DNA from: Heterodontus francisci
Lineage: Eukaryota
NCBI RefSeq assembly: GCF_036365525.1
Contig: NC_090378.1
Span: forward strand, 119,893,593-119,957,592
Length of the DNA: 64,000 nucleotides
Reading direction: 5' to 3'
In this document: positions 8,137 through 64,000 of the stretch, in pieces
Layout: each line of letters opens with the position of its first letter
Position numbering within the stretch: the first letter of the stretch is position 1
Position numbers and translations under genes: made by a program
Notes under the pieces: model-generated
What the model saw: the letters and a program-made list of their open reading frames with translations, nothing else
Told to the model about the DNA's origin: nothing
Database searches by the model: none

Positions 8137-10945
8137 AGAACATACGGACATACAAATTCAGAGCAGGAGTAGACCACTCGACCCCTCGAACCTGCTCCGC
8201 CATTCAATAAGTTCATGGCTGAACTGATTACTCCACATTTCCACCTACCTCCGATAACCTTCCACCCCCTTGCTTATCAAGAATCTATCTACCTCTTCCA
8301 TAAAAATATTCAAAGACTCTGCTTCCACTGCCTTTTGAGGAAGAGAATTCCAAAGACTCACGATCCTCTGAGAGAAAAGATTTCTCCTCATCTCTGTCTT
8401 AAATGGGCGACACCTTATTTTTAAACAGTGACCCCTAGTTCGAGATTCTTCCACAAGGGGAAACATCCTTTCCACATCCACCCTGTCAAGACCCCCCAGG
8501 ATCTTATATGTTTCAATCAAGACGCCTCTTACTTTTCTAAATTCCAGCGGATACAACCTAGCCTGTCCAATCTTTCCTCGTAAGACAGGCCACCCATTCC
8601 AGGTATCAGTCTAGTAGACCTTCTCTGTACTGCCTCCAAAGCATTTACATCCTTCCTTAAATAAGGAGACCAATACTGTACACAGTACTCCAGATGTGGT
8701 TTCACCAATGTCCTGTATAGCTGAAGCATAACCTCCCTACTTTTGTATTCAATTCCCCTTGTGATAAATGATAACATTCTATTAGCTTTCCTAATGACGT
8801 GCTGTATCTGCATACTAACTTTTGCGATTCATTGACTCATGCACTAGGACACCCAGATTCCTCTGCATCTCAGAGCTCTGCAATCTCTCACAATTTAGAT
8901 AATATGCTTCTGTTTTATTCTTCCTGCCAAAGTGGACAATTTCCCACTTTCCCACTTTCCCACATTATCCTCCATTTCCCAGGTCTTTGCCCACTCACTT
9001 AACCGATCTGTATTCCTTTGTAGCCTCCTTATGTCCTTTTCACAAGTTACTTTCCTACCTATCTTTCTGTCCTCAGCAAATTTAGCGACCATACCTTCAT
9101 CTAAGTCATTTATATAAATTGTAAAAAGTTGAGGCCCCCAGCACAGATCCCTGTGGCACACCACCTGTTACGTCTTGCCAACCAGAAAATGACCCATTTA
9201 TGCCGACTGTCTGTTTGCTGTTAGCTCACCAATCTTCGATCCATGCCAATATGTTACCCTCTACACTATGAGCTTTTATTTTCTGCAATAACCTTTGATG
9301 TAGCACCTTATCAAATGCCTTCTGGGAATCCAAGTACAATACATCCACTGGTTCCCCTTTATCCACAGCACATGTAACTCCCTCAAAGAACTCCAATAAC
9401 TTGGTTAAACATGATTTCCCTTTCACAAAACCATGTTGAGTCTTCCTGATTACCTTGAATTTTTCTAAATACCCTGCTATAACATCTTTAATAATAGCTT
9501 CAAACATTTTCCCTAAGACAGATGTTAAGCTAACTGGCCTGTAGTTTCCTGCTTTCTGTCTCCTTCCCTTTTTGAATAAAGGAGTTACATTTGCTATTTT
9601 CCAATCTAAAGGAACCTTCCCTGAATCTCGGGAAATTTGGAAAATTAAAACTAACGCATCAACTATCTCACTAGCCACTTCTTCTTATACCCTAAGATGA
9701 AGTCCATCAGGACCTGGGGACTTGTCATCCCGCAGCTTCAACAATTTGTTCAGTACCACGTCCCTGATGATTGTAATTTTCTTGAGTTCCTCCCTCCCTT
9801 CCATTTCCTGACTTACAGCTAATACTAGGATGTTACGTGTATACTCAGTAGTGAAGACTGATACAAAATAGCTTTTCAATTCATCTGCCATCTCCTTATT
9901 ATCCATCAATAATTCCCTAGACTCACTTTTTATAGGACCAATGCTCACTTTGTTAACTTTTTTCTTTTTAATATATTTATAGATGCTCTTACTATCTTTA
10001 TATTTCTAGCTAGCTTTCTCTCGTACTCTAACTTTACCTTCCTTATCAATCTTTTAGTCCTTCTTTGCTGTTTTTTATATTCCGTCCAATCTTCTGGCCT
10101 GCCTCCCATCTTTGCACAATTTTAGGCTTTTTCTTTACGCTTTATATATCTTTAACTGTTTTACTTAACCACGAATGGCGGGTCCCACCCTTGGAATTTT
10201 TCTGTCTCGTTGAAATGTACCTATTCTGCATATTCTGAAATATCCCCTTAAAAGTCTGCCACTGCATCTCTATTGACCTATCCCTAAACCTACTTTGCCA
10301 GTTCACTTCAGCTCGCTCTGCTTTCATTCCCTCATAATTGCCCTTATTTAAGTTTAAAATACTAGTCTTGGACCCACTCTTCTCTCCTTCAAACTGAATG
10401 TAAAATTCAATCATATTCTGATCGCTGCTACCTAGGGGCACTTTAACTATAAGGTCATTAATTATTCCTATCACATTCCACAATACTAGGTCTAGTATAG
10501 CCTGCTCTCTGGTTGGATCCAGAACGTATTGTTCCAAGAAATTATCCCAAAATCATTTCATGTACTCATCTAGAGGCTACCTCTGCCCATCTGATTTTTC
10601 CAGTCTATATGTAGGTTAAAATCCCCCACAATTATCACTATACCTTTCTGACAAGCTGCCATTATTTCTTCCTTTATACCCCTTCCCACAGTGTAGTTAA
10701 TGTTAGGTAGCCTGTGCACCACTCCCACATGTGACTTCTTGTCTTTATGATTTCTCATCTCTACCCAAACTGCTTCATCATCCTGGTCTCCTGAACTTAG
10801 GTCATCCCTCTCTATTGCGCTAATGCCATCATTAATTACAGAGCTACCCCTCCACCATTTCCTAGCTTCCTGTCCTTCCTAAATGCCAGATATCTTTGAA
10901 TATTCAGGTCCCAATCAATGTCGTCCTGTAGCCTGTAATGGCTAT
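8137..10945 (-). mobile_element. CR1 LINE ORF2 (APE endonuclease + RT), decayed and 5'-truncated
   Basis: Fragments GDFNL..DW, PTREQAILDLVL, LGSSD, KSPGPDG, WKIANVTPLFKKG, NYRPVSLTS, QHGFVKGKSCLT, AFDKV, FTIYINDL, KFAED, PHLEYCVQYWSP; 3' tail near 8137-8160. Confidence 0.95.
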
Positions 10946-13900
10946 CTTCTTTGGCCTCCTTGTCTCGGGAGATAATGGGTAAGCGCCTGGAGGTGGTCAG
11001 TGGTTTGTAAAGCAGCGCCTGGAGTAGCTATAAAGACCAATTCTAGAGTGACAGACTCTTCCACAGGTGCTGCAGAAAAAATTGGTTGTCGAGGCTGTTA
11101 CACAGTTGGCTCTCTCTTTGCGCTTCTGTCTTTTTTCCTGCCAACTGCTAAGTCTCTTTGACTCGCCACACTTTAGCCCCGCCTTTATGGCTGCCCGCCA
11201 GCTCTAGCGATCGCTGGCAACTGACCCCCACGACTTGTGATCAATGTCACAGGACTTCATGTCGCGTTTGCAGACGTCTTTAAAGCGGAGACATGGACGG
11301 CCGGAGGGTCTGATACCAGTGGCGAGCTCGCTGTGCAATGTGTCCTTGGGGATCCTGCCATCTTCCATGCGGCTCACATGGCCAAGCCATCTGAAGCGCC
11401 GCTGACTCAGTAGTGTGTATAAGCTGGGGATGTTGGTCGCCTCGAGGACTTCTGTGTTGGAGATACGGTCCTGCCACCTGATGGCAAGGATTCTCCGGAG
11501 GCAGCGAAGATGGAATGAATTGAGACGTCGCTCTTGGCTGACATACGTTGTCCAGGCCTCGCTGCCGTAGAGCAAGGTATTGAGGACACAGGCTTGATAC
11601 ACTCGGATTTTTGTGTTCCGTGTCAGTGCGCCATTTTCCCACATTCTCTTGGCCAGTCTGGACATAGCAGTGGAAGCCTTTCCCATGCGCTTGTTGATTT
11701 CTGCATCGAGAGACAGGTTACTGGGGATAGTTGAACCACTTCCAGAGTGTGGTCGCCGATATTGATGGATGGAGCATTTCTGACGTCCTGTCCCATGATG
11801 TTCATTTTCTTGAGGCTGATGGTTAGGACAAATTCATTGCAGGCAGCCGCAAACTTGTCGATGAGACTCTGCAGGCACTCTTCAGTGTGAGATGTTAAAG
11901 CAGCATCGTCAGCAAAGAGGAGTTCCCTGATGAGGACTTTCCGTACTTTGGTCTTCGCTCTTAGACAGGCAAGGTTGAACAACCTGCCCCCTGATCTTGT
12001 GTGGAGGAAAATTCCTTCTTCTGAAGACTTGAACGCGTGTGAGAGCAGCAGAGAGAAGAAAATCACAACCAGTGTAGGTGCGAGAACACAGCCCTGTTTC
12101 ACGCCACTCAGGATAGGAAAGGGGTCTGATGAGGTGCCGCTATGCTGAATTGTGCCTTTCATATTGTCATGGAATGAGGTGATGATACTTAGTAGCTTTG
12201 GTGGACATCCAATCTTTGTTAGTAGCCTGAAGAGACCACGTCTGCTGCCGAGGTCAAAGGCTTTGGTGAGATCAATGAAAGCAACATAGAGGGGCATCTG
12301 TTGTTCACGGCATTTCTCCTGTAGCTGACGAAGGGAGAACAGCGTGTCAATGGTCGATCTCTCTGCTCGAAGGCCACACTGTGCCTCAGGTTAGACACGC
12401 TTGGCCAGCTTCTGGAGCCTGTTTAAAGCGACTCGAGCGAAGACTTTCCCCACTATGCTGTGCAGGGAGATTCCACGGTAGTTGTTGCAGTCACCGCGGT
12501 CACCCTTGTTCTTATAGAGGGTGATGATATTGGCATCGCGCATGTCCTGTGGTGCTGCTCCCTCGTCCCAGCACAGGCAAAGCAGTTCGTAGAGTGCTGA
12601 GAGTTTGGCAGGCTTAGCACTCTTGCTTATTTCAGGGATAATGCCGTCCTTCCCAGGGTCTTTTCCGCTGGCTGGAGAATCAGTGGCATCACTGAGTTCT
12701 GATTTTGTTGGCTGTATGTCCAGCTCATCCATGACTGGCAGAGACTGGGCTGCATTGAGGGCGGTCTCAGTGACAACATTCTCCCTGGAGTACAGTTCTA
12801 GGTAGTGCTCCACCCAGCGGTCCATTTGCTTGCTTTGGTCAATGATTGTGTCCCCTCATTTAGATTTGAGGGGGGCGATCTTCTTGATGGTTGGCCCAAA
12901 AGCTCTCTTAATGCCATCATACATTCCAATGATGTTTCCGGTGTCAGAGGCCAGCTGAATATGACTGCATAGGTGTTGCCAGTAGTCATTTGCGCAGCGC
13001 CTGGCTGTTCTTTGTGCAGCGCTTCTGGCTGTTTTAAGTGCTACGGATGTTAACTCGCTGGGGGCTTTTTTGTAGTTCAGCAGTGCAATGCGCTTAGTGG
13101 CTATGACAGGTTCCAGCTCTTCAATGTGAGATTGAAACCAGTCTGCATTCCGCTTCACACGTTTGCCATAGGTGGTCATGGCTGACTCATAAATGGCGTC
13201 TCTGATGTGGGCCCACTTGGTCTCTGCATCCCCTGTGGGAGTGTTTTGAAGGGCTTTTCCAAGTGAATTTAGAAATTTTTGTAACAGCTGTGGATAAGAA
13301 ATTCTGCTCGTGTTGATGCGCGGGTGGCCCTTCTGCTTGGAGTGATGCAGCTTCTTTGGTTTGAGTCTAACCTTGCTGCACACCAGGGAGTGGTCGGTGT
13401 CGCAGTCCGCACTGTGGAAGCTGCATGTGATTTGAACACAGTTTAAGGAGGCTCGCCTTGTGACGATGAGGTCCAGCTGGTGCCAACGACGTGATCTTGG
13501 GTGCCTCCAAGAAACCTGGTGACAGGGTTTAGTGTGAAAGAACGAGTTGGTGATGCAGAGGTTATGATAGGTACACAACTCAAGCAGTCTCTGTCCATTC
13601 TCATTCATCCTTCCAACGCCATAGCGCCCAAGGCAGGAGGGCCATGAGTCATGGTCGGCCCCAACCCTGGCATTAAAGTCCCCCAGCAGGAACAGATGTT
13701 CGGTATTTGGGATGCTACCAATGATATTATGGAGTTCCTCGTAGAACTGGTCTTTATCTTCATGTGGGGAGCAGAGTGTTGAAGCATAGATGCTGAGTAG
13801 GTGTACTGGACCAGAGGTGGTGAGCAGTCGGATGGACAGTATGCGTTCTGAGCCATTTGAAGGTGGCTCTATCATGCTGAGCAAAGAGTTTCTGATGGCG

Positions 13901-14720
13901 AAGCCCACTCCATGCTGTCTTAGTTCTTCAGGAACCCTACCCTGCCAGAAGAAGGTGTAGTCTTGCTCTGTTAGAGATCTGCTCGCTGGGAGGCATGTCT
14001 CCTGAAGTGCTGCAATGTCCACATTGAGTCTACTGAGCTCGTTGTTAATGATGGCGGTCTTCCGAGAATCGTTGATTTGTGTAAGGTCTTCCGACAGGCC
14101 AGGACACATAGTTCTGACGTTCCAGTTTGCAAAACGAAGGGCTGGTACCTTCTTTCCTTTTTTCGTGCTGTTTGGTGCAGTGTTGCAGTCCGCTTTTCGG
14201 GCAATAACCCTGAGCTCCAAGCACCCATTGAAGCAGGTGGACTGTGGGGGGACAGAACCTTATTGACTGGGGGCTTCCCGGTTTGAGGCGGGCGGTAGCT
14301 GTCCACTGAGGTGCGATGACCTCTTCCACTGACAAAGGCAACCCGTGGCGCCCAATCTCTACGCCAATTGAGCTGGACTTATAACCTGTAACTGTTGCCT
14401 TCCGTGTTGTTTCGGTTGCTGTGAGGCGACTTTGGAGTGACCTCTCCATGGCGCTTGCCTGGGTGAATGTATGGAGGTTGTGAGTTGCCCAAGCGTCAAA
14501 ACCCCCCTCTCGGCCTTCTGGTGGGGTCCAAAGGAGTGCAGAGCACGATATTTGGCACCGGTATGGCTGCAGGAACTGCCGGAAACATGCCTAAAGTGAC
14601 ACATGACCGCCTACGGGGTTCCGCTCCGGATTTCTGTTAGGGTTTACTGCCTTAGCCTTGGACTCTCCCAAGACGCCAACAAGGCAGTGGGGTTGTTAGG
14701 GCCCCTGCTCAGGGCTAGGT
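10946..14720 (-). mobile_element. RTE-clade LINE, near full length, a few frameshifts
   Basis: EN ORF 12856-14220 (WNVRT, IAALQET, GVGFAI, LLGDFNARVG, WHQLD, DTDH). RT ORFs 12391-12825 and 11623-12297 (NYRGISL, FIDLTKAFD, GVKQGCVLAP, LLFADD). C-terminus 11204-11686 (LLYGSEAW, RWLGHV.RM). Confidence 0.93.
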
Positions 14721-14727
14721 GGATGCC

Positions 14728-14962
14728 GGTGGGAGGAGGGGGTGCGAGGGGGAGGGGTGGAGGGAAGGGGGTGCGAGGGGGAGCTGGGAAGGGGGCTGTA
14801 GAGGGGTGGGGGGGTTCAGGCGAAGGGGGTGCAGGGGGAAGATGGTGCAAGGGGGGAGCTGGGAAGGGGTTGCGAGGGGGGAGGGGGTGGGGTAAGAGGG
14901 TGCTGGGGGGGGTGAGCTGGGAGGGGGGAGCTGGGAAGGGGAAGCGGGGGGAGTGAAGGGGA
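14728..14962 (+). repeat. G-rich low-complexity tract (G-quadruplex-prone)
   Basis: Dense G3-G8 runs with repeated gggggagctgggaagggg / gcgagggg units. Confidence 0.85.
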
Positions 14963-14999
14963 TGCAGGTAATAAAACATTTCATCAGTTCCCACCATCC

Positions 15000-15272
15000 A
15001 TGCCGGGAAAGCTCAACCGCGTCCTCCGGGAGGTGGGTGACAGCCTCGGGCGCCAGTACCAGCAGGAATTCGTAGACATTGAGCTGACAGTATTGGAGGC
15101 TGCAGGGAGCTGGCAGTATTGGAGGGTACAGGGAGTGGCAGTATTGGAGGGTACAGGGAGTGGCAGTATTGGAGGGTACAGGGAGTGGCAGTATTGGGGG
15201 GGGGGAGCAGGGAGCTGGCAGTATTGGGGGGGCGGAGCAGGGAGCTGGCAGTATTGGGGGAACAGGGTCTAA
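15000..15272 (+). other. Short ORF whose N-terminal part resembles a Bcl-2-family BH3 helix (gene fragment or micro-gene)
   Basis: MPGKLNRVLREVGDSLGRQYQQEFVDI fits L-x-x-x-G-D-x-hydrophobic-x-R-x-Y-x-x-(D/E)-F. The rest of the ORF is minisatellite-derived. Confidence 0.4.
15085..15266. repeat. 24-29-bp minisatellite, about 7 copies
   Basis: Repeated (c)tggcagtattggagggtacagggag and variants. Confidence 0.9.
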
Positions 15273-15489
15273 CAGTCCTGTGAGTCCAGGTATTTTGGAT
15301 TTAAATATCCTGTTTCATCCACTTTCAAACCTCCTGTTTCCAATTTCTCCTGTCTTCCCACCGTCAGCGTTTCTCTGTCTCTGTTCAGGAGGTGATTGAC
15401 TGCAAAACCATGAATTTCCAGTATACAATGTTTTCTGTCCAATGAAACAGAATAAAATCTATTATTTTACACCATTGCTGTCTCTCAGT

Positions 15490-15945
15490 GTTGTTTGCCA
15501 GAATGAGTTCCACATTCTAACCTCTCTCTGGTTAAAAAAGTTGCTCCTGAATTCCCTATTGGATTTAATGTTGATTATTGTATGTTCTGATCTCACCCAC
15601 AATTGGAAGAATCTTCTCAACATCTACTCTCTCAAACCTCTTCATATCCTGAAAGACATTCATGAGGTCACCAAAGAGCCCCAGCCTGTTTAGCCTTTCC
15701 TGATCAGTTTATCCTCTCAGTTCTGGTAAATCTATTTTGCACCTTCTCCACTGGCTCGAGATCCTTTTCAGAATATGGAGGCTCGAACCGTTCAGTGTAC
15801 GTCAAGTGTGGCCTCACCAACATTGGACAGCAGTTCAACAGAAATTCACTGCTTTTCAGTTCGAAGCCTCTAGAAATAAATCCAGCTGCTTGATTTGCTT
15901 TGTTTAAGTCTTTATTCACCTGTGTCACTACTTTTAGTGATTTTT
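15490..15945 (-). mobile_element. Old CR1 LINE 3' fragment
   Basis: KANQAAGFISRGFELKS…LVRPHLTY…KVQNRFTR is a degenerate version of the CR1 ORF2 C-terminal motif seen at 8529-8813. Confidence 0.75.
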
Positions 15946-52314: not shown

Positions 52315-52349
52315 TCAGTCTGAGCTTGGTTCCTTTACCAAACGTTAAC
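52315..52349 (-). CDS. IGKJ: Immunoglobulin light-chain J gene segment (germline, unrearranged)
   Basis: The minus strand reads G TTA ACG TTT GGT AAA GGA ACC AAG CTC AGA CTG A|gtaagt = LTFGKGTKLRL, with the FGxGTKL motif and a perfect GTAAGT donor (52314-52309). The phase-1 A joins GC of the C exon to give in-frame Ser (…KLRL-S-REKSQP…). Confidence 0.96.
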
Positions 52350-52388
52350 CACACTGACAGCTTCCAGTGCAGGGGCTGTACAATATCC
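52350..52388 (+). other. 23-bp-spacer recombination signal sequence of the J segment
   Basis: It abuts the J coding end: heptamer CACACTG (52350-52356, 6/7 to CACAGTG), an exactly 23-bp spacer (52357-52379), and nonamer ACAATATCC (52380-52388, 7/9 to ACAAAAACC). J-23 is the kappa-type configuration. Confidence 0.92.
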
Positions 52389-52399
52389 TCTGCTCTCTG

Positions 52400-56770: not shown

Positions 56771-59700
56771 CATTAATTATATTACATATATAAATGTGGG
56801 ATGTGTCAGTACAGGAGGTGGGACTGTGTGTCCATTATTATATATTATATATAACTGTGGGATGTGTCAGTGCAGGAGGTGGGACTGTGTGTCCATTATT
56901 ATATATTATATATAACTGTGAGATGTGTCAGTCCAGGAGGTGGGACTGTGTGTCCATTATTATATATTATATACAACTGTGGGATGTGTCAGTACAGGAG
57001 GTGGGACTGTGTGTCCATTATTATATATTATATATAACTGTGAGATGTGTCAGTACAGGAGGTGAGACTGTGTGTCCATTATTATATATTATATATAACT
57101 GTGGGATGTGTCAGTGCAGGAGGTGGGACTGTGTGTCCATTATTATATATTATATATAACTGTGAGATGTGTCAGTCCAGGAGGTGGGACTGTGTGTCCA
57201 TTATTATATATTATATACAACTGTGGGATGTGTCAGTACAGGAGGTGGGACTGTGTGTCCATTATTATATATTATATATAACTGTGAGATGTGTCAGTAC
57301 AGGAGGTGAGACTGTGTGTCCATTATTATATATTATATATAACTGTGGGATGTGTCAGTACAGGAGGTGGGACTGTGTGTCCATTGTTATATATTATATA
57401 TAACTGTGGGACATGTCAGTACAGGAGGTGGGACTGTGTGTCCATTGTTATATATTATATATAACTGTGGGACATGTCAGTACAGGAGGTGGGACTGTGT
57501 GTCCATTATTCTATATTATATATAACTGTGGGATGTGTCAGTCCAGGAGGTGGGACTGTGTGTCCATTATTATATATTCTATATAACTGTGGGATGTGTC
57601 AGTACAGGAGGTGGAACTGTGTGTCCATTATTATATATTATATATAACTGTGGGATGTGTCAGTACAGGAGGTGGGACTGTGTGCCCATTATTATATATT
57701 ATATATAACTGTGGGATGTGTCAGTCCAGGAGGTGGGACTGTCTGTCCATTATTATATATTATATATAACTGTGGGATGTGTCAGTGCAGGAGGTGAGAC
57801 TGTGTGTCCATTATTATATATTATATATAACTGTGGGATGTGTCAGTCCAGGAGGTGGGACTGTGTGTCCATTATTATATATTATATATAACTGTGGGAT
57901 CTGTCAGTCCAGGAGGTGGGACTGTGTGTCCATTATTATATATTATATATAACTGTGGGATGTGTCAGTCCAGGAGGTGGACTGTGTGTCCATTATTATA
58001 TATTATATATAACTGTGGGATGCGTCAGTCCAGGAGGTGAGACTGTGTGTCCATTATTATATATTATATATAACTGTGGGATGTGTCAGTCCAGGAGGTG
58101 GGACTGTGTGTCCATTATTATATATTATATATAACTGTGGGATGTGTCAGTCCAGGAGGTGAGACTGTGTGTCCATTATTATATATTATATATAACTGTG
58201 GGATGTGTCAGTCCAGGAGGTGGGACTGTGTGTCCATTATTATATATTATATATAACTGTGGGATGTGTCAGTATACAGGAGGTGGGACTGTGTGTCCAT
58301 TATTATATATTACATATAGCTGTGGGATGTGTCAGTACAGGAGGTGAGACTGTGTGTCCATTATTATATATTATATATAACTGTGGGATGTGTCAGTATA
58401 CAGGAGTTGGAACTGTGTTTCCATTATTATATATTATATATAGCTGTGGGATGTTTCAGTACAGGAGGTGAGACTGTGTGTCCATTATTATATATTATAT
58501 ATAACTGTGGGACGTGTCAGTACAGGAGGTGGGACTGTGTGTCCATTATTATATATTATATATAACTGTGGGACGTGTCAGTACAGGAGGTGGGACCGTG
58601 TGTCCATTATTATATATTATATATAACTGTGGGATGTGTCAGTCCAGGAGGTGGGACTGTGTGTCCATTATTCTATATTATATACAACTGTGGGATGTGT
58701 CAGTCCAGGAGGTGGGACTGTGTGTCCATTATTATGTATTATATATAACTGTGGGATGTGTCAGTACAGGAGGTGGAACTGTGTGTCCATTATTATATAT
58801 TATATATAACTGTGGGATGTATCAGGACAGGAGGTGGGACTGTGTGTCCATTATTATATATTATATATAACTGTGGGATGTGTCAGTCCAGGAGGTGGGA
58901 CTGTGTGTCCATTATTCTATATTATATACAACTGTGGGATGTGTCAGTCCAGGAGGTGGGACTGTGTGTCCATTATTATGTATTATATATAACTGTGGGA
59001 TGTGTCAGTACAGGAGGTGGAACTGTGTGTCCATTATTATATATTATATATAACTGTGGGATGTATCAGGACAGGAGGTGGGACTGTGTGTCCATTATTA
59101 TATATTATATATAACTGTGGGATGTGTCAGTCCAGGAGGTGGGACTGTGTGTCCATTATTATATATTATATATAACTGTGGGATGTATCAGGACAGGAGG
59201 TGGGACTGTGTGTCCATTATTATATATTATATATAACTGTGGGATGTGTCAGTCCAGGAGGTGGGACTGTGTGTCCATTATTATGTATTATATATAACTG
59301 TGGGATGTGTCAGTACAGGAGGTGGAACTGTGTGTCCATTATTATATATTATATATAACTGTGGGATGTATCAGGACAGGAGGTGGGACTGTGTGTCCAT
59401 TATTATATATTATATATAACTGTGGGATGTGTCAGTCCAGGAGGTGGGACTGTGTATCCATTATTATATATTATATACAACTGTGGGATGTGTCAGTCCA
59501 GGAGGTGGGACTGTGTGTCCATTATTATATATTATATATAACTGTAGGATGTGTCAGTCCAGGAGGTGGGACTGTGTGTCCATTATTCTATATTATATAT
59601 AACTGTGGGATGTGTCAGTCCAGGAGGTGGGACTGTGTGTCCATTATTATATATTCTATATAACTGTGGGATGTGTCAGTACAGGAGGTGGAACTGTGTG

Positions 59701-62700
59701 TCCATTATTATATATTATATATAACTGTGGGATGTGTCAGTACAGGAGGTGGGACTGTGTGCCCATTATTATATATTATATATAACTGAGGGATGTGTCA
59801 GTCCAGGAGGTGGGAGTGTCTGTCCATTATTATATATTATATATAACTGTGGGATGTGTCAGTCCAGGAGGTGGGACTGTGTGTCCATTATTATATATTA
59901 TATATAACTGTGGGATGCGTCAGTGCAGGAGGTGAGACTGTGTGTCCATTATTATATATTATATATAACTGTGGGATGTGTCAGTCCAGGAGGTGGGACT
60001 GTGTGTCCATTATTATATATTATATATAACTGTGGGATGTGTCTGTCCAGGAGGTGGGACTGTGTGTCCATTATTATATATTATATATAACTGTGGGATG
60101 TGTCAGTCCAGGAGGTGGACTGTGTGTCCATTATTATATATTATATATAACTGTGAGATGCGTCAGTCCAGGAGGTGAGACTGTGTGTCCATTATTATAT
60201 ATTATATATAACTGTGGGATGTGTCAGTCCAGGAGGTGGGACTGTGTGTCCATTATTATATATTATATATAACTGTGGGATGTGTCAGTATACAGGAGGT
60301 GGGACTGTGTGTCCATTAGTATATATTACATATAGCTGTGGGATGTGTCAGTACAGGAGGTGAGACTGTGTGTCCATTATTGTATATTATATATAACTGT
60401 GGGATGTGTCAGTACAGGAGGTGGGACTGTGTGTCCATTGTTATATATTATATATAACTGTGGGATGTGTCAGTCCAGGAGGTGGGACTGTGTGTCCATT
60501 ATTATATATTATATATAACTGTGGGATGTGTCAGTCCAGGAGGTGGGACTGTGTGTCCATTATTATATATTATATATAACTGTGGGATGTGTCAGTACAG
60601 GAGGTGGGACTGTGTGTCCATTATTTTAAATTATATATAACTGTGGGATGTGTCAGTACAGGAGGTGGGAATGTGTGTCCATTATTATATATTATATATA
60701 ACTGTGGGATGTGTCAGTCCAGGAGGTGGGACTGTGTGTCCATTATTATATATTATATATAACTGTGGGATGTGTCAGTCCAGGAGGTGGGACTGTGTGT
60801 CCATTATTATGTATTATATATAACTGTGGGATGTGTCAGTACAGGAGGTGGAACTGTGTGTCCATTATTATATATTATATATAACTGTGGAATGTGTCAG
60901 GACAGGAGGTGGGACTGTGTGTCCATTATTATATATTATATATAACTGTGGGATGTGTCAGTCCAGGAGGTGGGACTGTGTGTCCATTATTCTATATTAT
61001 ATACAACTGTGGGATGTGTCAGTCCAGGAGGTGGGACTGTGTGTCCATTATTATATATTATATATAACTGTAGGATGTGTCAGTTCAGGAGGTGGGACTG
61101 TGTGTCCATTATTCTATATTATATATAACTGTGGGATGTGTCAGTCCAGGAGGTGGGACTGTGTGTCCATTATTATATATTCTATATAACTGTGGGATGT
61201 GTCAGTACAGGAGGTGGAACTGTGTGTCCATTATTATATATTATATATAACTGTGGGATGTGTCAGTACAGGAGGTGGGACTGTGTGCCCATTATTATAT
61301 ATTATATATAACTGTGGGATGTGTCAGTCCAGGAGGTGGGAGTGTCTGTCCATTATTATATATTATATATAACTGTGGGATGTGTCAGTACAGGAGGTGG
61401 GACTGTGTGCCCATTATTATATATTATATATAACTGAGGGATGTGTCAGTCCAGGAGGTGGGAGTGTCTGTCCATTATTATATATTATATATAACTGTGG
61501 GATGCGTCAGTGCAGGAGGTGGGACTGTGTGTCCATTGTTATATATTATATGTAACTGTGGGATGTGTCAGTCCAGGAGGTGGGACTGTGTGTCCATTAT
61601 TATATATTATATATAACTGTGGGATGTGTCAGTCCAGGAGGTGGGACTGTGTGTCCATTATTATATATTATATATAACTGTGGGATGTGTCAGTACAGGA
61701 GGTGGGACTGTGTGTCCATTATTTTAAATTATATATAACTGTGGGATGTGTCAGTACAGGAGGTGGGACTGTGTGTCCATTATTATATATTATATATAAC
61801 TGTGGGATGTGTCAGTATACAGGAGGTGGGACTGTGTGTCCATTATTATATATTACATATAGCTGTGGGATGTGTCAGTACAGGAGGTGAGACTGTGTGT
61901 CCATTATTATATATTATATATAACTGTGGGATGTGTCAGTATACAGGAGGTGGGACTGTGTGTCCATTATTATATATTATATATAACTGTGGGATGTGTC
62001 AGTACAGGAGGTGGGACTGTGTGTCCATTATTTTAAATTATATATAACTGTGGGATGTGTCAGTACAGGAGGTGGGACTGTGTGTCCATTATTATATATT
62101 ATATATAACTGTGGGATGTGTCAGTATACAGGAGGTGGGACTGTGTGTCCATTATTATATATTACATATAGCTGTGGGATGTGTCAGTACAGGAGGTGAG
62201 ACTGTGTGTCCATTATTATATATTATATATAACTGTGGGATGTGTCAGTATACAGGAGGTGGAACTGTGTTTCCATTATTATATATTATATATAGCTGTG
62301 GGATGTGTCAGTACAGGAGGTGAGACTGTGTGTCCATTATTATATATTATATATAACTGTGGGATGCGTCAGTGCAGGAGGTGAGACTGTGTGTCCATTA
62401 TTATATATTATATATAACTGTGGGATGTGTCAGTCCAGGAGGTGGGACTGTGTGTCCATTATTATATATTATATATAACTGTGGGATGTGTCAGTCCAGG
62501 AGGTGGGACTGTGTGTCCATTATTATATATTATATATAACTGTGGGATGTGTCAGTCCAGGAGGTGGACTGTGTGTCCATTATTATATATTATATATAAC
62601 TGTGGGATGCGTCAGTCCAGGAGGTGAGACTGTGTGTCCATTATTATATATTATATATAACTGTGGGATGTGTCAGTCCAGGAGGTGGGACTGTGTGTCC

Positions 62701-64000
62701 ATTATTATATATTATATATAACTGTGGGATGTGTCAGTCCAGGAGGTGAGACTGTGTGTCCATTATTATATATTATATATAACTGTGGGATGTGTCAGTC
62801 CAGGAGGTGGGACTGTGTGTCCATTATTATATATTATATATAACTGTGGGATGTGTCAGTATACAGGAGGTGGGACTGTGTGTCCATTATTATATATTAC
62901 ATATAGCTGTGGGATGTGTCAGTACAGGAGGTGAGACTGTGTGTCCATTATTATATATTATATATAACTGTGGGATGTGTCAGTATACAGGAGGTGGAAC
63001 TGTGTTTCCATTATTATATATTATATATAGCTGTGGGATGTGTCAGTACAGGAGGTGAGACTGTGTGTCCATTATTATATATTATATATAATTGTGGGAC
63101 GTGTCAGTACAGGAGGTGGGACTGTGTCTCCATTATTATATATTATATATAACTGTGGGATGTGTCAGTACAGGAGGTGGGACTGTGTGTCCATTATTAT
63201 ATATTATATATAACTGTGGGACGTGTCAGTACAGGAGGTGGGACTGTGTGTCCATTATTATATATTATATATAACAGTGGGATGTGTCAGTACAGGAGGT
63301 GGGACTGTGTGCCCATTATTATATATTATATATAACTGTGGGATGTGTCAGTACAGGAGTTGGGACTGTGTGTCCATTATTATATTATATATAACAGTGG
63401 GACATGTCAGTACAGGAGGTGGGACTGTGTGTCCATTATTATATATTATATATAACAGTGGGATGTGTCAGTACAGGAGGTGGGACTGTGTGTCCATTAT
63501 TATATTATATATAACAGTGGGACATGTCAGTACAGGAGGTGGGACTGCGTGTCCATTATTATATATTATATATAACTGTGGGATGTGTCAGTACAGGAGT
63601 TGGGACTGTGTGTCCATTATTATAATATATATATAACTGTGGGATGTGTCAGTACAGGAGTTGGGACTGTGTGTCCATTATTATATTATATATAACAGTG
63701 GGACATGTCAGTACAGGAGGTGGGACTGTGTGTCCATTATTATATATTATATATAACTGTGGGATGTGTCAGTACAGGAGGCGGGACTGTGTGTCCATTA
63801 TTATATATTATATCTAACTGTGAGACGTGTCAGTGCAGGAGGTGGGACTGTGTGTCCATTATTATATATTATATATAACTGTGGGACGTGTCAGTCCAGG
63901 ATGTGGGACTGTGTGTCCATTATTATATATTATATATAACTGTGAGACGTGTCAGTGCAGGAGGTGGGACTGTGTGTCCATTTTTATATATTATATAGAA
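56771..64000. repeat. 61-bp satellite array, about 118 units, runs off the window end
   Basis: Consensus GGACTGTGTGTCCATTATTATATATTATATATAACTGTGGGATGTGTCAGT(A/C)CAGGAGGTG; some units are 59, 60 or 63 bp. Confidence 0.99.

What the first reader, a model, noticed from the sequence alone, without database searches (positions are those of the whole stretch)
14961..15470. Orphan Bcl-2-family BH3-like reading frame with gene-like splice and poly(A) signals, hidden between an RTE and the giant satellite
Seen: a ~90-bp CpG-rich, non-repetitive stretch encodes (QFPPS)MPGKLNRVLREVGDSLGRQYQQEFVDI. The ORF stops at 15270-72. Seven nt later comes a GTGAGT donor (15280), then a 109-bp intron-like segment with a long polypyrimidine tract ending TTCAG (15388), then AATAAA at 15451. 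A G-rich tract lies upstream. Known: the BH3 core is LxxxGDx(F/L/I); Bcl-2 has VHLTLRQAGDDFSRRYRRDFAEM and Bak has RQLAIIGDDINRRYDSEF. The match here extends beyond the core to R-x-Y-x-x-(D/E)-F in the same register. Inference: this is either a captured fragment of a bcl2-family exon or a small BH3-only-like transcript convergent on an Ig light-chain cluster. A spliced apoptosis-regulator micro-gene travelling with shark IgL clusters would be new to me. BH1, BH2 and BH4 are not visible, so a dead fragment is at least as likely.
Basis: partly seen in the sequence, partly recalled or inferred. Interest (0 to 1): 0.7.

Follow-up and report, generated by a model that had tools for sequence, protein, structure and literature searches.

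The report
Shark LINE carries reversed BCL2 exon
The "BH3 micro-gene" is a real scrap of the fish's own cell-survival gene BCL2 lying backwards in the front end of a jumping gene copied to many hundreds of places; it was likely picked up by RNA splicing and then flipped, and it likely makes no protein.

Summary
The BH3 resemblance is real homology, but this is not an orphan micro-gene. Window 15002-15086 is 90.6% identical to the first coding exon of the genome's BCL2 gene. It lies antisense inside the 5' end of an RTE-type LINE (10945-15086, minus strand), with 1012 candidate copies genome-wide; 26 of 32 copies picked by LINE body carry it. Longer copies run through BH1; none reach BH4. The ATG is a CpG mutation (3 of 21 copies), the ORF tail is satellite, the piece decays near-neutrally, and the youngest subfamily has lost the BH3 core. 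The light-chain link is one insertion duplicated with 8 of 28 C exons. Rare copies join the BCL2 splice donor exactly to an AG in the LINE 5' end; other host first exons (slc35e3, a DCX gene) are also carried. Best model: splice capture, then inversion (inferred), like SVA_F1/MAST2 but in an autonomous LINE at about tenfold the copy number. No source element lies in the 169-kb BCL2 intron. The scan found this family before on other DNA of this genome.

The parts
10945..15086 (-). RTE-type LINE copy, broken by stops and frameshifts, 5'-truncated at 15086 against a satellite; no target-site duplication seen
   Evidence: Dispersed copies align over 10945-15086 at 89-92%; (GAA)n-type 3' ends at 10945; ORF pieces
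12856..14259 (-). Endonuclease part of the LINE ORF
   Evidence: Pfam Exo_endo_phos E 1.3e-10
11623..12390 (-). Reverse transcriptase part of the LINE ORF
   Evidence: Pfam RVT_1 E 2.8e-20
14728..14949 (-).
   Evidence: Tandem rows; present in dispersed copies between body and 5' motif
14960..14997 (-). Conserved LINE 5' motif to which the various captured pieces are joined
   Evidence: Shared by 45 of 47 main-type loci and by slc35e3-type copies
14998..15086 (+). Captured piece of host BCL2 first coding exon (L034:1476-1563, BH3 helix), antisense to the LINE; 1-nt insertion at about 15016
   Evidence: 90.6% over 15002-15086 to L034:1480-1563; L034 protein identical to P0001 'apoptosis regulator Bcl-2'; insertion in 20 of 21 copies of this subfamily
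15000..15002 (+). ATG made by CpG decay of ACG; not a subfamily feature
   Evidence: 3 of 21 and 0 of 24 copies
15081..15267 (.). Remnant of a 25-26-bp satellite; supplies the rest of the 90-aa ORF
   Evidence: TRF; more than 8 kb of the same array abuts this site in paralog L090; ORF ends in three frames among 8 copies
15268..15470 (+). Cluster-specific flank holding the stop, GTGAGT, pyrimidine tract/TTCAG and AATAAA; use not shown
   Evidence: 10 of 10 matches lie in C8:115.7-124.8 Mb; donor reads CTGAGT in L090
48014..48337 (-). Ig light-chain-type constant exon, convergent with the piece (neighbour, not part of the element)
   Evidence: Pfam C1-set E 1.6e-22; 28 matches on C8

Best explanation
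The stretch is a piece of the host BCL2 first coding exon carried backwards in the 5' end of an RTE-type LINE family with many hundreds of copies, likely acquired by splicing and a later inversion, and likely non-coding cargo. Shown: identity to BCL2, antisense position flush with the LINE 5' motif, copy number, target-site duplications enclosing it in some copies, near-neutral decay. Inferred steps: (1) the BCL2 exon donor, which precedes a 169-kb intron, was spliced to an AG in the 5' end of a LINE RNA (in trans, or in cis from an insertion since lost); (2) the chimera retrotransposed; (3) twin priming inverted the BCL2 part; (4) internal deletions brought it flush with the 5' motif and successive source elements amplified it; (5) one copy landed beside a satellite near a light-chain C exon, lost its 5' end, gained an ATG by CpG decay and was duplicated eight times with the cluster. 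Whether the CpG-rich piece serves as the LINE's promoter is untested.
For: Identity and single donor. Inside the LINE: 20 of 20 dispersed copies fetched; 45 of 47 main-type loci antisense and 0-5 nt from the 5' motif, 2 without the motif; 26 of 32 copies picked by LINE body alone; 9-12-bp duplications at the homology boundary in L021, L024, L030, of 20 testable loci. Splice capture: of 40 slc35e3-type copies, 17 keep the CTGG start; 14 are preceded by TCAG and 3 by GACTGG, the BCL2 exon end (48 and 58 nt of BCL2 in L110 and L118, only about 7 nt in L117); 0 of 3 copies with the exon end go on into intron or last exon; contigs in X1-X3 join this donor to the last exon. Inversion: sense and antisense forms of the same exon coexist. 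No protein: ATG in 3 of 21 and 0 of 24; 10 replacement to 2 silent fixed changes plus a 1-nt insertion in the window's subfamily; private changes 35 silent/94 replacement against 38.0/88.7 expected; BH3 core replaced by about 85 foreign nt in the youngest subfamily, 18 copies at 1.1% divergence; 0 of 8 copies with the upstream exon part reach the ATG or BH4.
Against: No source element was found: the whole 168.6-kb BCL2 intron holds only a 226-nt LINE 3' piece on the opposite strand. The splice junction rests on two clear copies. The tree of 54 LINE bodies is star-like (3 of 51 forks well supported), so the order of events is not fixed by phylogeny. The older subfamily shows a mild silent excess, 77/136 against 62.6/148.6, possibly from copies keeping the host base at two silent sites (not tested). 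slc35e3 is carried antisense with no sense form seen, which splicing alone does not explain. The donor, acceptor and AATAAA motifs each occur at 0.5-1.0 per kb per strand, so finding all three within 200 nt is uncommon.
Confidence: 0.72

Rival explanations
1. Same passive cargo, but captured without splicing: the reverse transcriptase switched templates to BCL2 mRNA, or a second priming event copied BCL2 mRNA directly in the opposite direction.
For: L056 carries a one-off chain of a DCX-gene exon, then BCL2 tail, joined in mid-exon; most forms are antisense with mid-exon ends; PMC13174262 (passages) ascribes antisense mRNA/L1 chimeras to twin priming; no intronic source.
Against: Three of three copies with the exon end stop at or just before the donor and two join it exactly to an AG site.
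Confidence: 0.15
2. The piece is functional for the LINE: the CpG-rich host exon is a recruited internal promoter, or a decoy that makes silencing the LINE costly because small RNAs would also hit BCL2.
For: Kept in 26 of 32 copies and through subfamilies from 4.4% to 1.1% divergence; CpG observed/expected 1.14 in the captured part; three identified donors are all first coding exons; contigs with LINE-type junctions occur in X1-X3, one sample, strand unknown; precedent in SVA_F1 (PMC6139936, passages).
Against: Copies with other 5' pieces also amplified (497 candidates); the youngest subfamily has disrupted the piece; about half of private changes are CpG transitions. This rival adds to the best explanation and is not exclusive of it.
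Confidence: 0.2
3. One reading: in these eight cluster copies a new ATG turned the piece into a small spliced BH3-only transcript driven from the G-rich tract.
For: All 8 cluster copies keep the ATG and L-x-x-x-G-D-x-L; stop, donor, acceptor and AATAAA lie in order.
Against: The 8 copies are 99-100% identical duplicates of one insertion; their ORFs are 89-140 aa and end in three frames; two thirds of the ORF is satellite; the donor is absent in the older paralog.
Confidence: 0.05

Closest known systems
SVA_F1 (MAST2 exon 1, human, 84 copies) and pt_SVA_D6 (STK40 exon 1, chimpanzee, 94 copies); PMC6139936, passages read
   Same: A GC-rich early host exon joined at its splice donor to an acceptor in the element's 5' region founds a subfamily; further host exons are added serially.
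   Different: Here the carrier is a LINE with its own endonuclease and reverse transcriptase, in a cartilaginous fish; the amplified form is antisense; candidates number 723-1012; promoter activity is not shown.
mRNA/LINE-1 chimeras (17 mRNAs; RAP1GDS1/L1PA2); PMC13174262, abstract and passages read
   Same: Exons ending at splice donors before long introns, usually no intronic source (15 of 17 loci there; none here, 169-kb intron), antisense forms ascribed to twin priming.
   Different: Those are single insertions or a pair; here the chimera became the majority 5' end among the sampled copies and lasted through several subfamilies.
Host BCL2 (L034; P0001; human BCL-2 best PDB match)
   Same: BH3 helix and, in longer copies, BH1 sequence, 91-99% identical as DNA.
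   Different: No BH4, start codon, BH2 (except one copy) or membrane anchor; reversed; frameshifted and decaying.
BH3-only proteins; L1 antisense ORF0 (both recalled, not from a call)
   Same: Short BH3 motif; antisense frame in a LINE 5' UTR.
   Different: No conserved start, stop or reading frame across copies.

Membership tests
Bcl-2 family (sequence origin) | Homology to BH3-BH1 region | tested here: met
   90.6% DNA identity to BCL2; longer copies pass the PF00452 cut-off
BH3-only gene | BH3 motif L-x-x-x-G-D-x-(F/L/I) | tested here: met
   LREVGDSL
BH3-only gene | Conserved start, frame and purifying selection | tested here: not met
BH3-only gene | Expressed, spliced transcript and binding to Bcl-xL/Mcl-1 | not testable with these tools
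   Only unstranded contigs of one sample were available; binding not tested
RTE-clade LINE | Endonuclease and reverse transcriptase in one ORF region, no ORF1 | tested here: met
RTE-clade LINE | Microsatellite-like 3' end and short target-site duplications | tested here: met
   (GAA)n-type ends; 9-12-bp duplications in some copies; feature as in PMC6007223, passages
RTE-clade LINE | Placement in the RTE clade by a reverse-transcriptase tree with reference elements | not tested
   Clade name rests on anatomy and recalled motifs
Splice-mediated 5' transduction (SVA_F1 type) | Host exon ends at its donor and joins an AG of the element | tested here: met
   L110 and L118 clear, L117 short
Splice-mediated 5' transduction (SVA_F1 type) | Exon in sense orientation in the amplified subfamily | tested here: not met
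   Main families antisense, 45 of 45; sense forms are minor
Splice-mediated 5' transduction (SVA_F1 type) | Source element inside the donor gene's intron | tested here: not met
   Whole intron read
Splice-mediated 5' transduction (SVA_F1 type) | Captured exon acts as promoter | not testable with these tools
   Needs reporter or start-site data
Twin-priming inversion | Inverted 5' part joined to a forward 3' part within one insertion | tested here: inconclusive
   Inverted copies are common (L016, L017, L027, L031, L054), but the founding BCL2 inversion was not caught inside one duplication

The most novel reading that the evidence does not exclude
An autonomous shark LINE renews its 5' end by trapping host first exons, and kept a reversed BCL2 exon because it works: as its promoter, and as a source of antisense or small RNA from about a thousand loci that ties silencing of the LINE to the level of the host's main anti-death gene.
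Probability: 0.13. Interest if true: 0.78.

Novelty: new variant of a known kind. Interest (0 to 1): 0.5.

Why it matters
How LINEs gain new 5' UTRs is an open question that mammals show only as rare single chimeras. This family preserves intermediates (sense spliced, inverted, deleted, replaced) of a capture that founded whole subfamilies, so the steps can be studied. Practically, at least 150 places pass the Pfam Bcl-2 cut-off in this genome and most are LINE cargo, which would fake a Bcl-2 family expansion and confound BCL2 read mapping. If the reversed exon is transcribed in the germline it could affect BCL2 itself.

Tried and rejected
HDV-like or other ribozyme at 15086: Rfam gave nothing near threshold, and 15086 proved to be a truncation point, not the family's 5' end. 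BAK as donor: only E 0.026, no DNA match. Intronic source element: none. Ordering subfamilies by tree: unresolved; 12 of 66 loci were dropped for under 600 aligned nt. Expression: no RNA holder listed; three contig sets of one sample, RNA by guess, gave no cover at 15287-15474 and no 15279-15389 joint, which is no evidence either way. Protein search with a LINE-derived frame found only 5 host-type Bcl-2 proteins, none LINE-derived, so spread to other species was not tested here. The pN/pS ratio printed for the window's subfamily used a shifted site count and is replaced. One search hit a neighbouring piece by a coordinate slip (it revealed the DCX exon); the intended search is. No complex prediction was run, as binding is not claimed. 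Literature searches without a report of this capture (listings only): RTE, retrotransposon, bcl-2, shark; RTE, non-LTR, gene fragment, capture, vertebrate; horn shark, Heterodontus, genome, transposable, RTE; terms from the label on P0001; bcl2, retrotransposon, cartilaginous, LINE, captured. Repeat libraries, subscription journals and supplements were not seen.

Full report
1. Observation. The 37-aa piece alone has no Pfam hit and a best PDB match to a BAK peptide at E 0.026. It is not unique: a search of the window's genome G000 gave 1012 candidates, 40 scored, 8 near-identical on C8 and 32 dispersed over 18 contigs at 92-94%.

2. It is inside the LINE. In 20 of 20 dispersed copies fetched, the piece is continuous with the element at window 10945-15086, minus strand, which has endonuclease and reverse transcriptase domains and a (GAA)n-type 3' end. 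Other copies extend beyond 15086, where the frame runs on to NWGRVVAF; the window copy is cut there by a satellite. Of 32 copies picked by the LINE body alone, 26 carry the piece, 5 are truncated before the 5' motif and 1 at it; this sample leans to window-like subfamilies. Duplications of 9-12 bp sit at the outer homology boundary in L021, L024 and L030, of 20 loci with both ends (10 more lacked a same-strand 3' end), so the piece moved with the element.

3. The donor is BCL2. Pfam Bcl-2 gave 290 candidates, 150 scored, all over the cut-off, most covering only model positions 1-62. One locus, L034 on C2, is an intact exon from ATG through BH4, BH3, BH1 and BH2; its protein is identical to P0001, named Bcl-2 by its source, with shark, ray and chimaera relatives at 77-94%, and its best solved matches are BCL-2. 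Window 15002-15086 matches L034:1480-1563 at 90.6%, and none of 7 other family loci. The main cargo is L034:1476-1680, antisense and 0-5 nt from the LINE 5' motif in 45 of 47 loci, 2 lacking the motif. The older subfamily's majority is 99.0% identical to the host exon, so this is capture from this gene, not deep homology.

4. It does not behave as a gene. The ATG is present in 3 of 21 copies of the window's subfamily and 0 of 24 of the older one; most read ACG. The window's subfamily has a 1-nt insertion (20 of 21) and 10 replacement to 2 silent fixed changes. Private changes are 35 silent, 94 replacement against 38.0 and 88.7 expected from CpG, transition and transversion rates; the older set gives 77 and 136 against 62.6 and 148.6, a mild silent excess that I did not resolve. 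The youngest subfamily (18 copies, 1.1% from its majority, against 3.3%, 4.4% and 4.7% for the others, on 180 nt of body) has the BH3 core replaced by about 85 foreign bases. Only 8 copies hold exon sequence upstream of 1470, none reaching the start or BH4.

5. The gene-like signals and the light-chain link. 15081-15267 is a remnant of a 25-26-bp satellite that runs for more than 8 kb in paralog L090, where no LINE abuts and the donor reads CTGAGT. The flank 15268-15500 occurs only in 10 places on C8. Of 28 C exons there, the 8 that are 100% alike lie 5-33 kb from the 8 copies: one insertion, duplicated. Their ORFs are 89-140 aa and end in three frames. Each motif occurs at 0.5-1.0 per kb per strand, so the three together in 200 nt are uncommon; the acceptor and AATAAA are also in L090 and so likely predate the insertion. 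A young plus-strand transcript is not excluded, only unsupported.

6. How it was captured (inferred). Three copies hold the end of the exon and none passes the donor at 1800. Contigs in X1-X3 (one sample) join that donor to the last exon, found 168.6 kb away. A sister subfamily (497 candidates) has a longer 5' end with 62 nt of the slc35e3 first exon antisense. In 40 such copies, 17 keep the site; 14 read TCAG|CTGG and 3 read GACTGG|CTGG, the BCL2 exon end set exactly on the AG (clear in L110 and L118, about 7 nt in L117). That is a donor-to-acceptor junction. Antisense forms with inner ends at 1405, 1474 and 1476, joined ever closer to the 5' motif, and minor sense forms fit inversion by twin priming followed by deletions; inverted copies are common in this family. 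Against: the intron, read whole, has no source element, and the tree of 54 bodies does not order the forms. Trans-splicing or a lost allele would fit; direct template switching remains a rival, and L056 shows such mid-exon joins.

7. Comparison. It works like SVA_F1/MAST2 and pt_SVA_D6/STK40 (84 and 94 copies; PMC6139936, passages) and like mRNA/L1 chimeras before long introns (17 mRNAs, 15 loci without intronic L1; PMC13174262, abstract and passages). It differs in carrier (a LINE with its own enzymes, in a cartilaginous fish), orientation and scale. RTE 3'-end features follow PMC6007223 (passages); the clade itself was not tested by tree. Searches (listings) showed no report of this capture; repeat libraries, subscription journals and supplements were not seen.

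8. Earlier notes. After my reading was fixed, look-ups showed four notes on the same family at other places of this genome; they agree and are not independent support. One says the repeat occurs in runs of three organisms; I could not check this. Added here: the body-picked fraction, loss of the BH3 core in the youngest subfamily, the empty intron, and the account of the light-chain link.

9. Verdict. Real BCL2 homology, wrong gene model. New variant of a known kind; interest 0.5. The boldest open reading, a functional promoter or antisense decoy, gets 0.13.

Noticed in passing
L056 / G000:C7:39.75 Mb: One-off chain: 134 nt of a DCX-domain gene's first coding exon ending at its donor (host L058), then BCL2 exon tail, slc35e3 piece and LINE.
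   Followed up: partly
L110-L129, L147-L166; host L130:1546-1607: A subfamily (497 candidates) carries 62 nt of the slc35e3 first coding exon antisense, 88-97% identical, plus several unidentified CpG-rich or exon-like pieces.
   Followed up: partly
L151, L154, L156, L158-L161, L164; L142, L145: Minor subfamilies carry the BCL2 BH3 helix in sense on the LINE RNA (host 1469-1581, or 1404-1616); I saw no in-frame ATG by eye.
   Followed up: partly
L169, L170: A 55-bp unit of the LINE's outer 5' piece is amplified into a tandem array of 13-16 copies.
   Followed up: no
L021, L022, L025: Short internally deleted copies (about 0.5-1.3 kb) keep the 5' cargo and the 3' end, with different breakpoints.
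   Followed up: no
G000:C8:115.7-124.8 Mb: 28 light-chain-type C exons, minus strand below about 120.6 Mb and plus strand above 121.0 Mb, with mirror-placed near-identical pairs: looks like a large inverted duplication.
   Followed up: no
window 16106-46888 and 56771-63997: 45-bp satellite of 684 units and a 61-bp satellite; the gap between this LINE copy and the C exon varies 5-33 kb among duplicates.
   Followed up: partly
window about 52320-52395, minus strand: J-segment-like sequence with a recombination-signal-like flank upstream of the C exon (read by eye).
   Followed up: no
L033, L035-L040: Other Bcl-2-family exons of this genome (one Bcl-xL-like by eye), none matching the cargo.
   Followed up: partly
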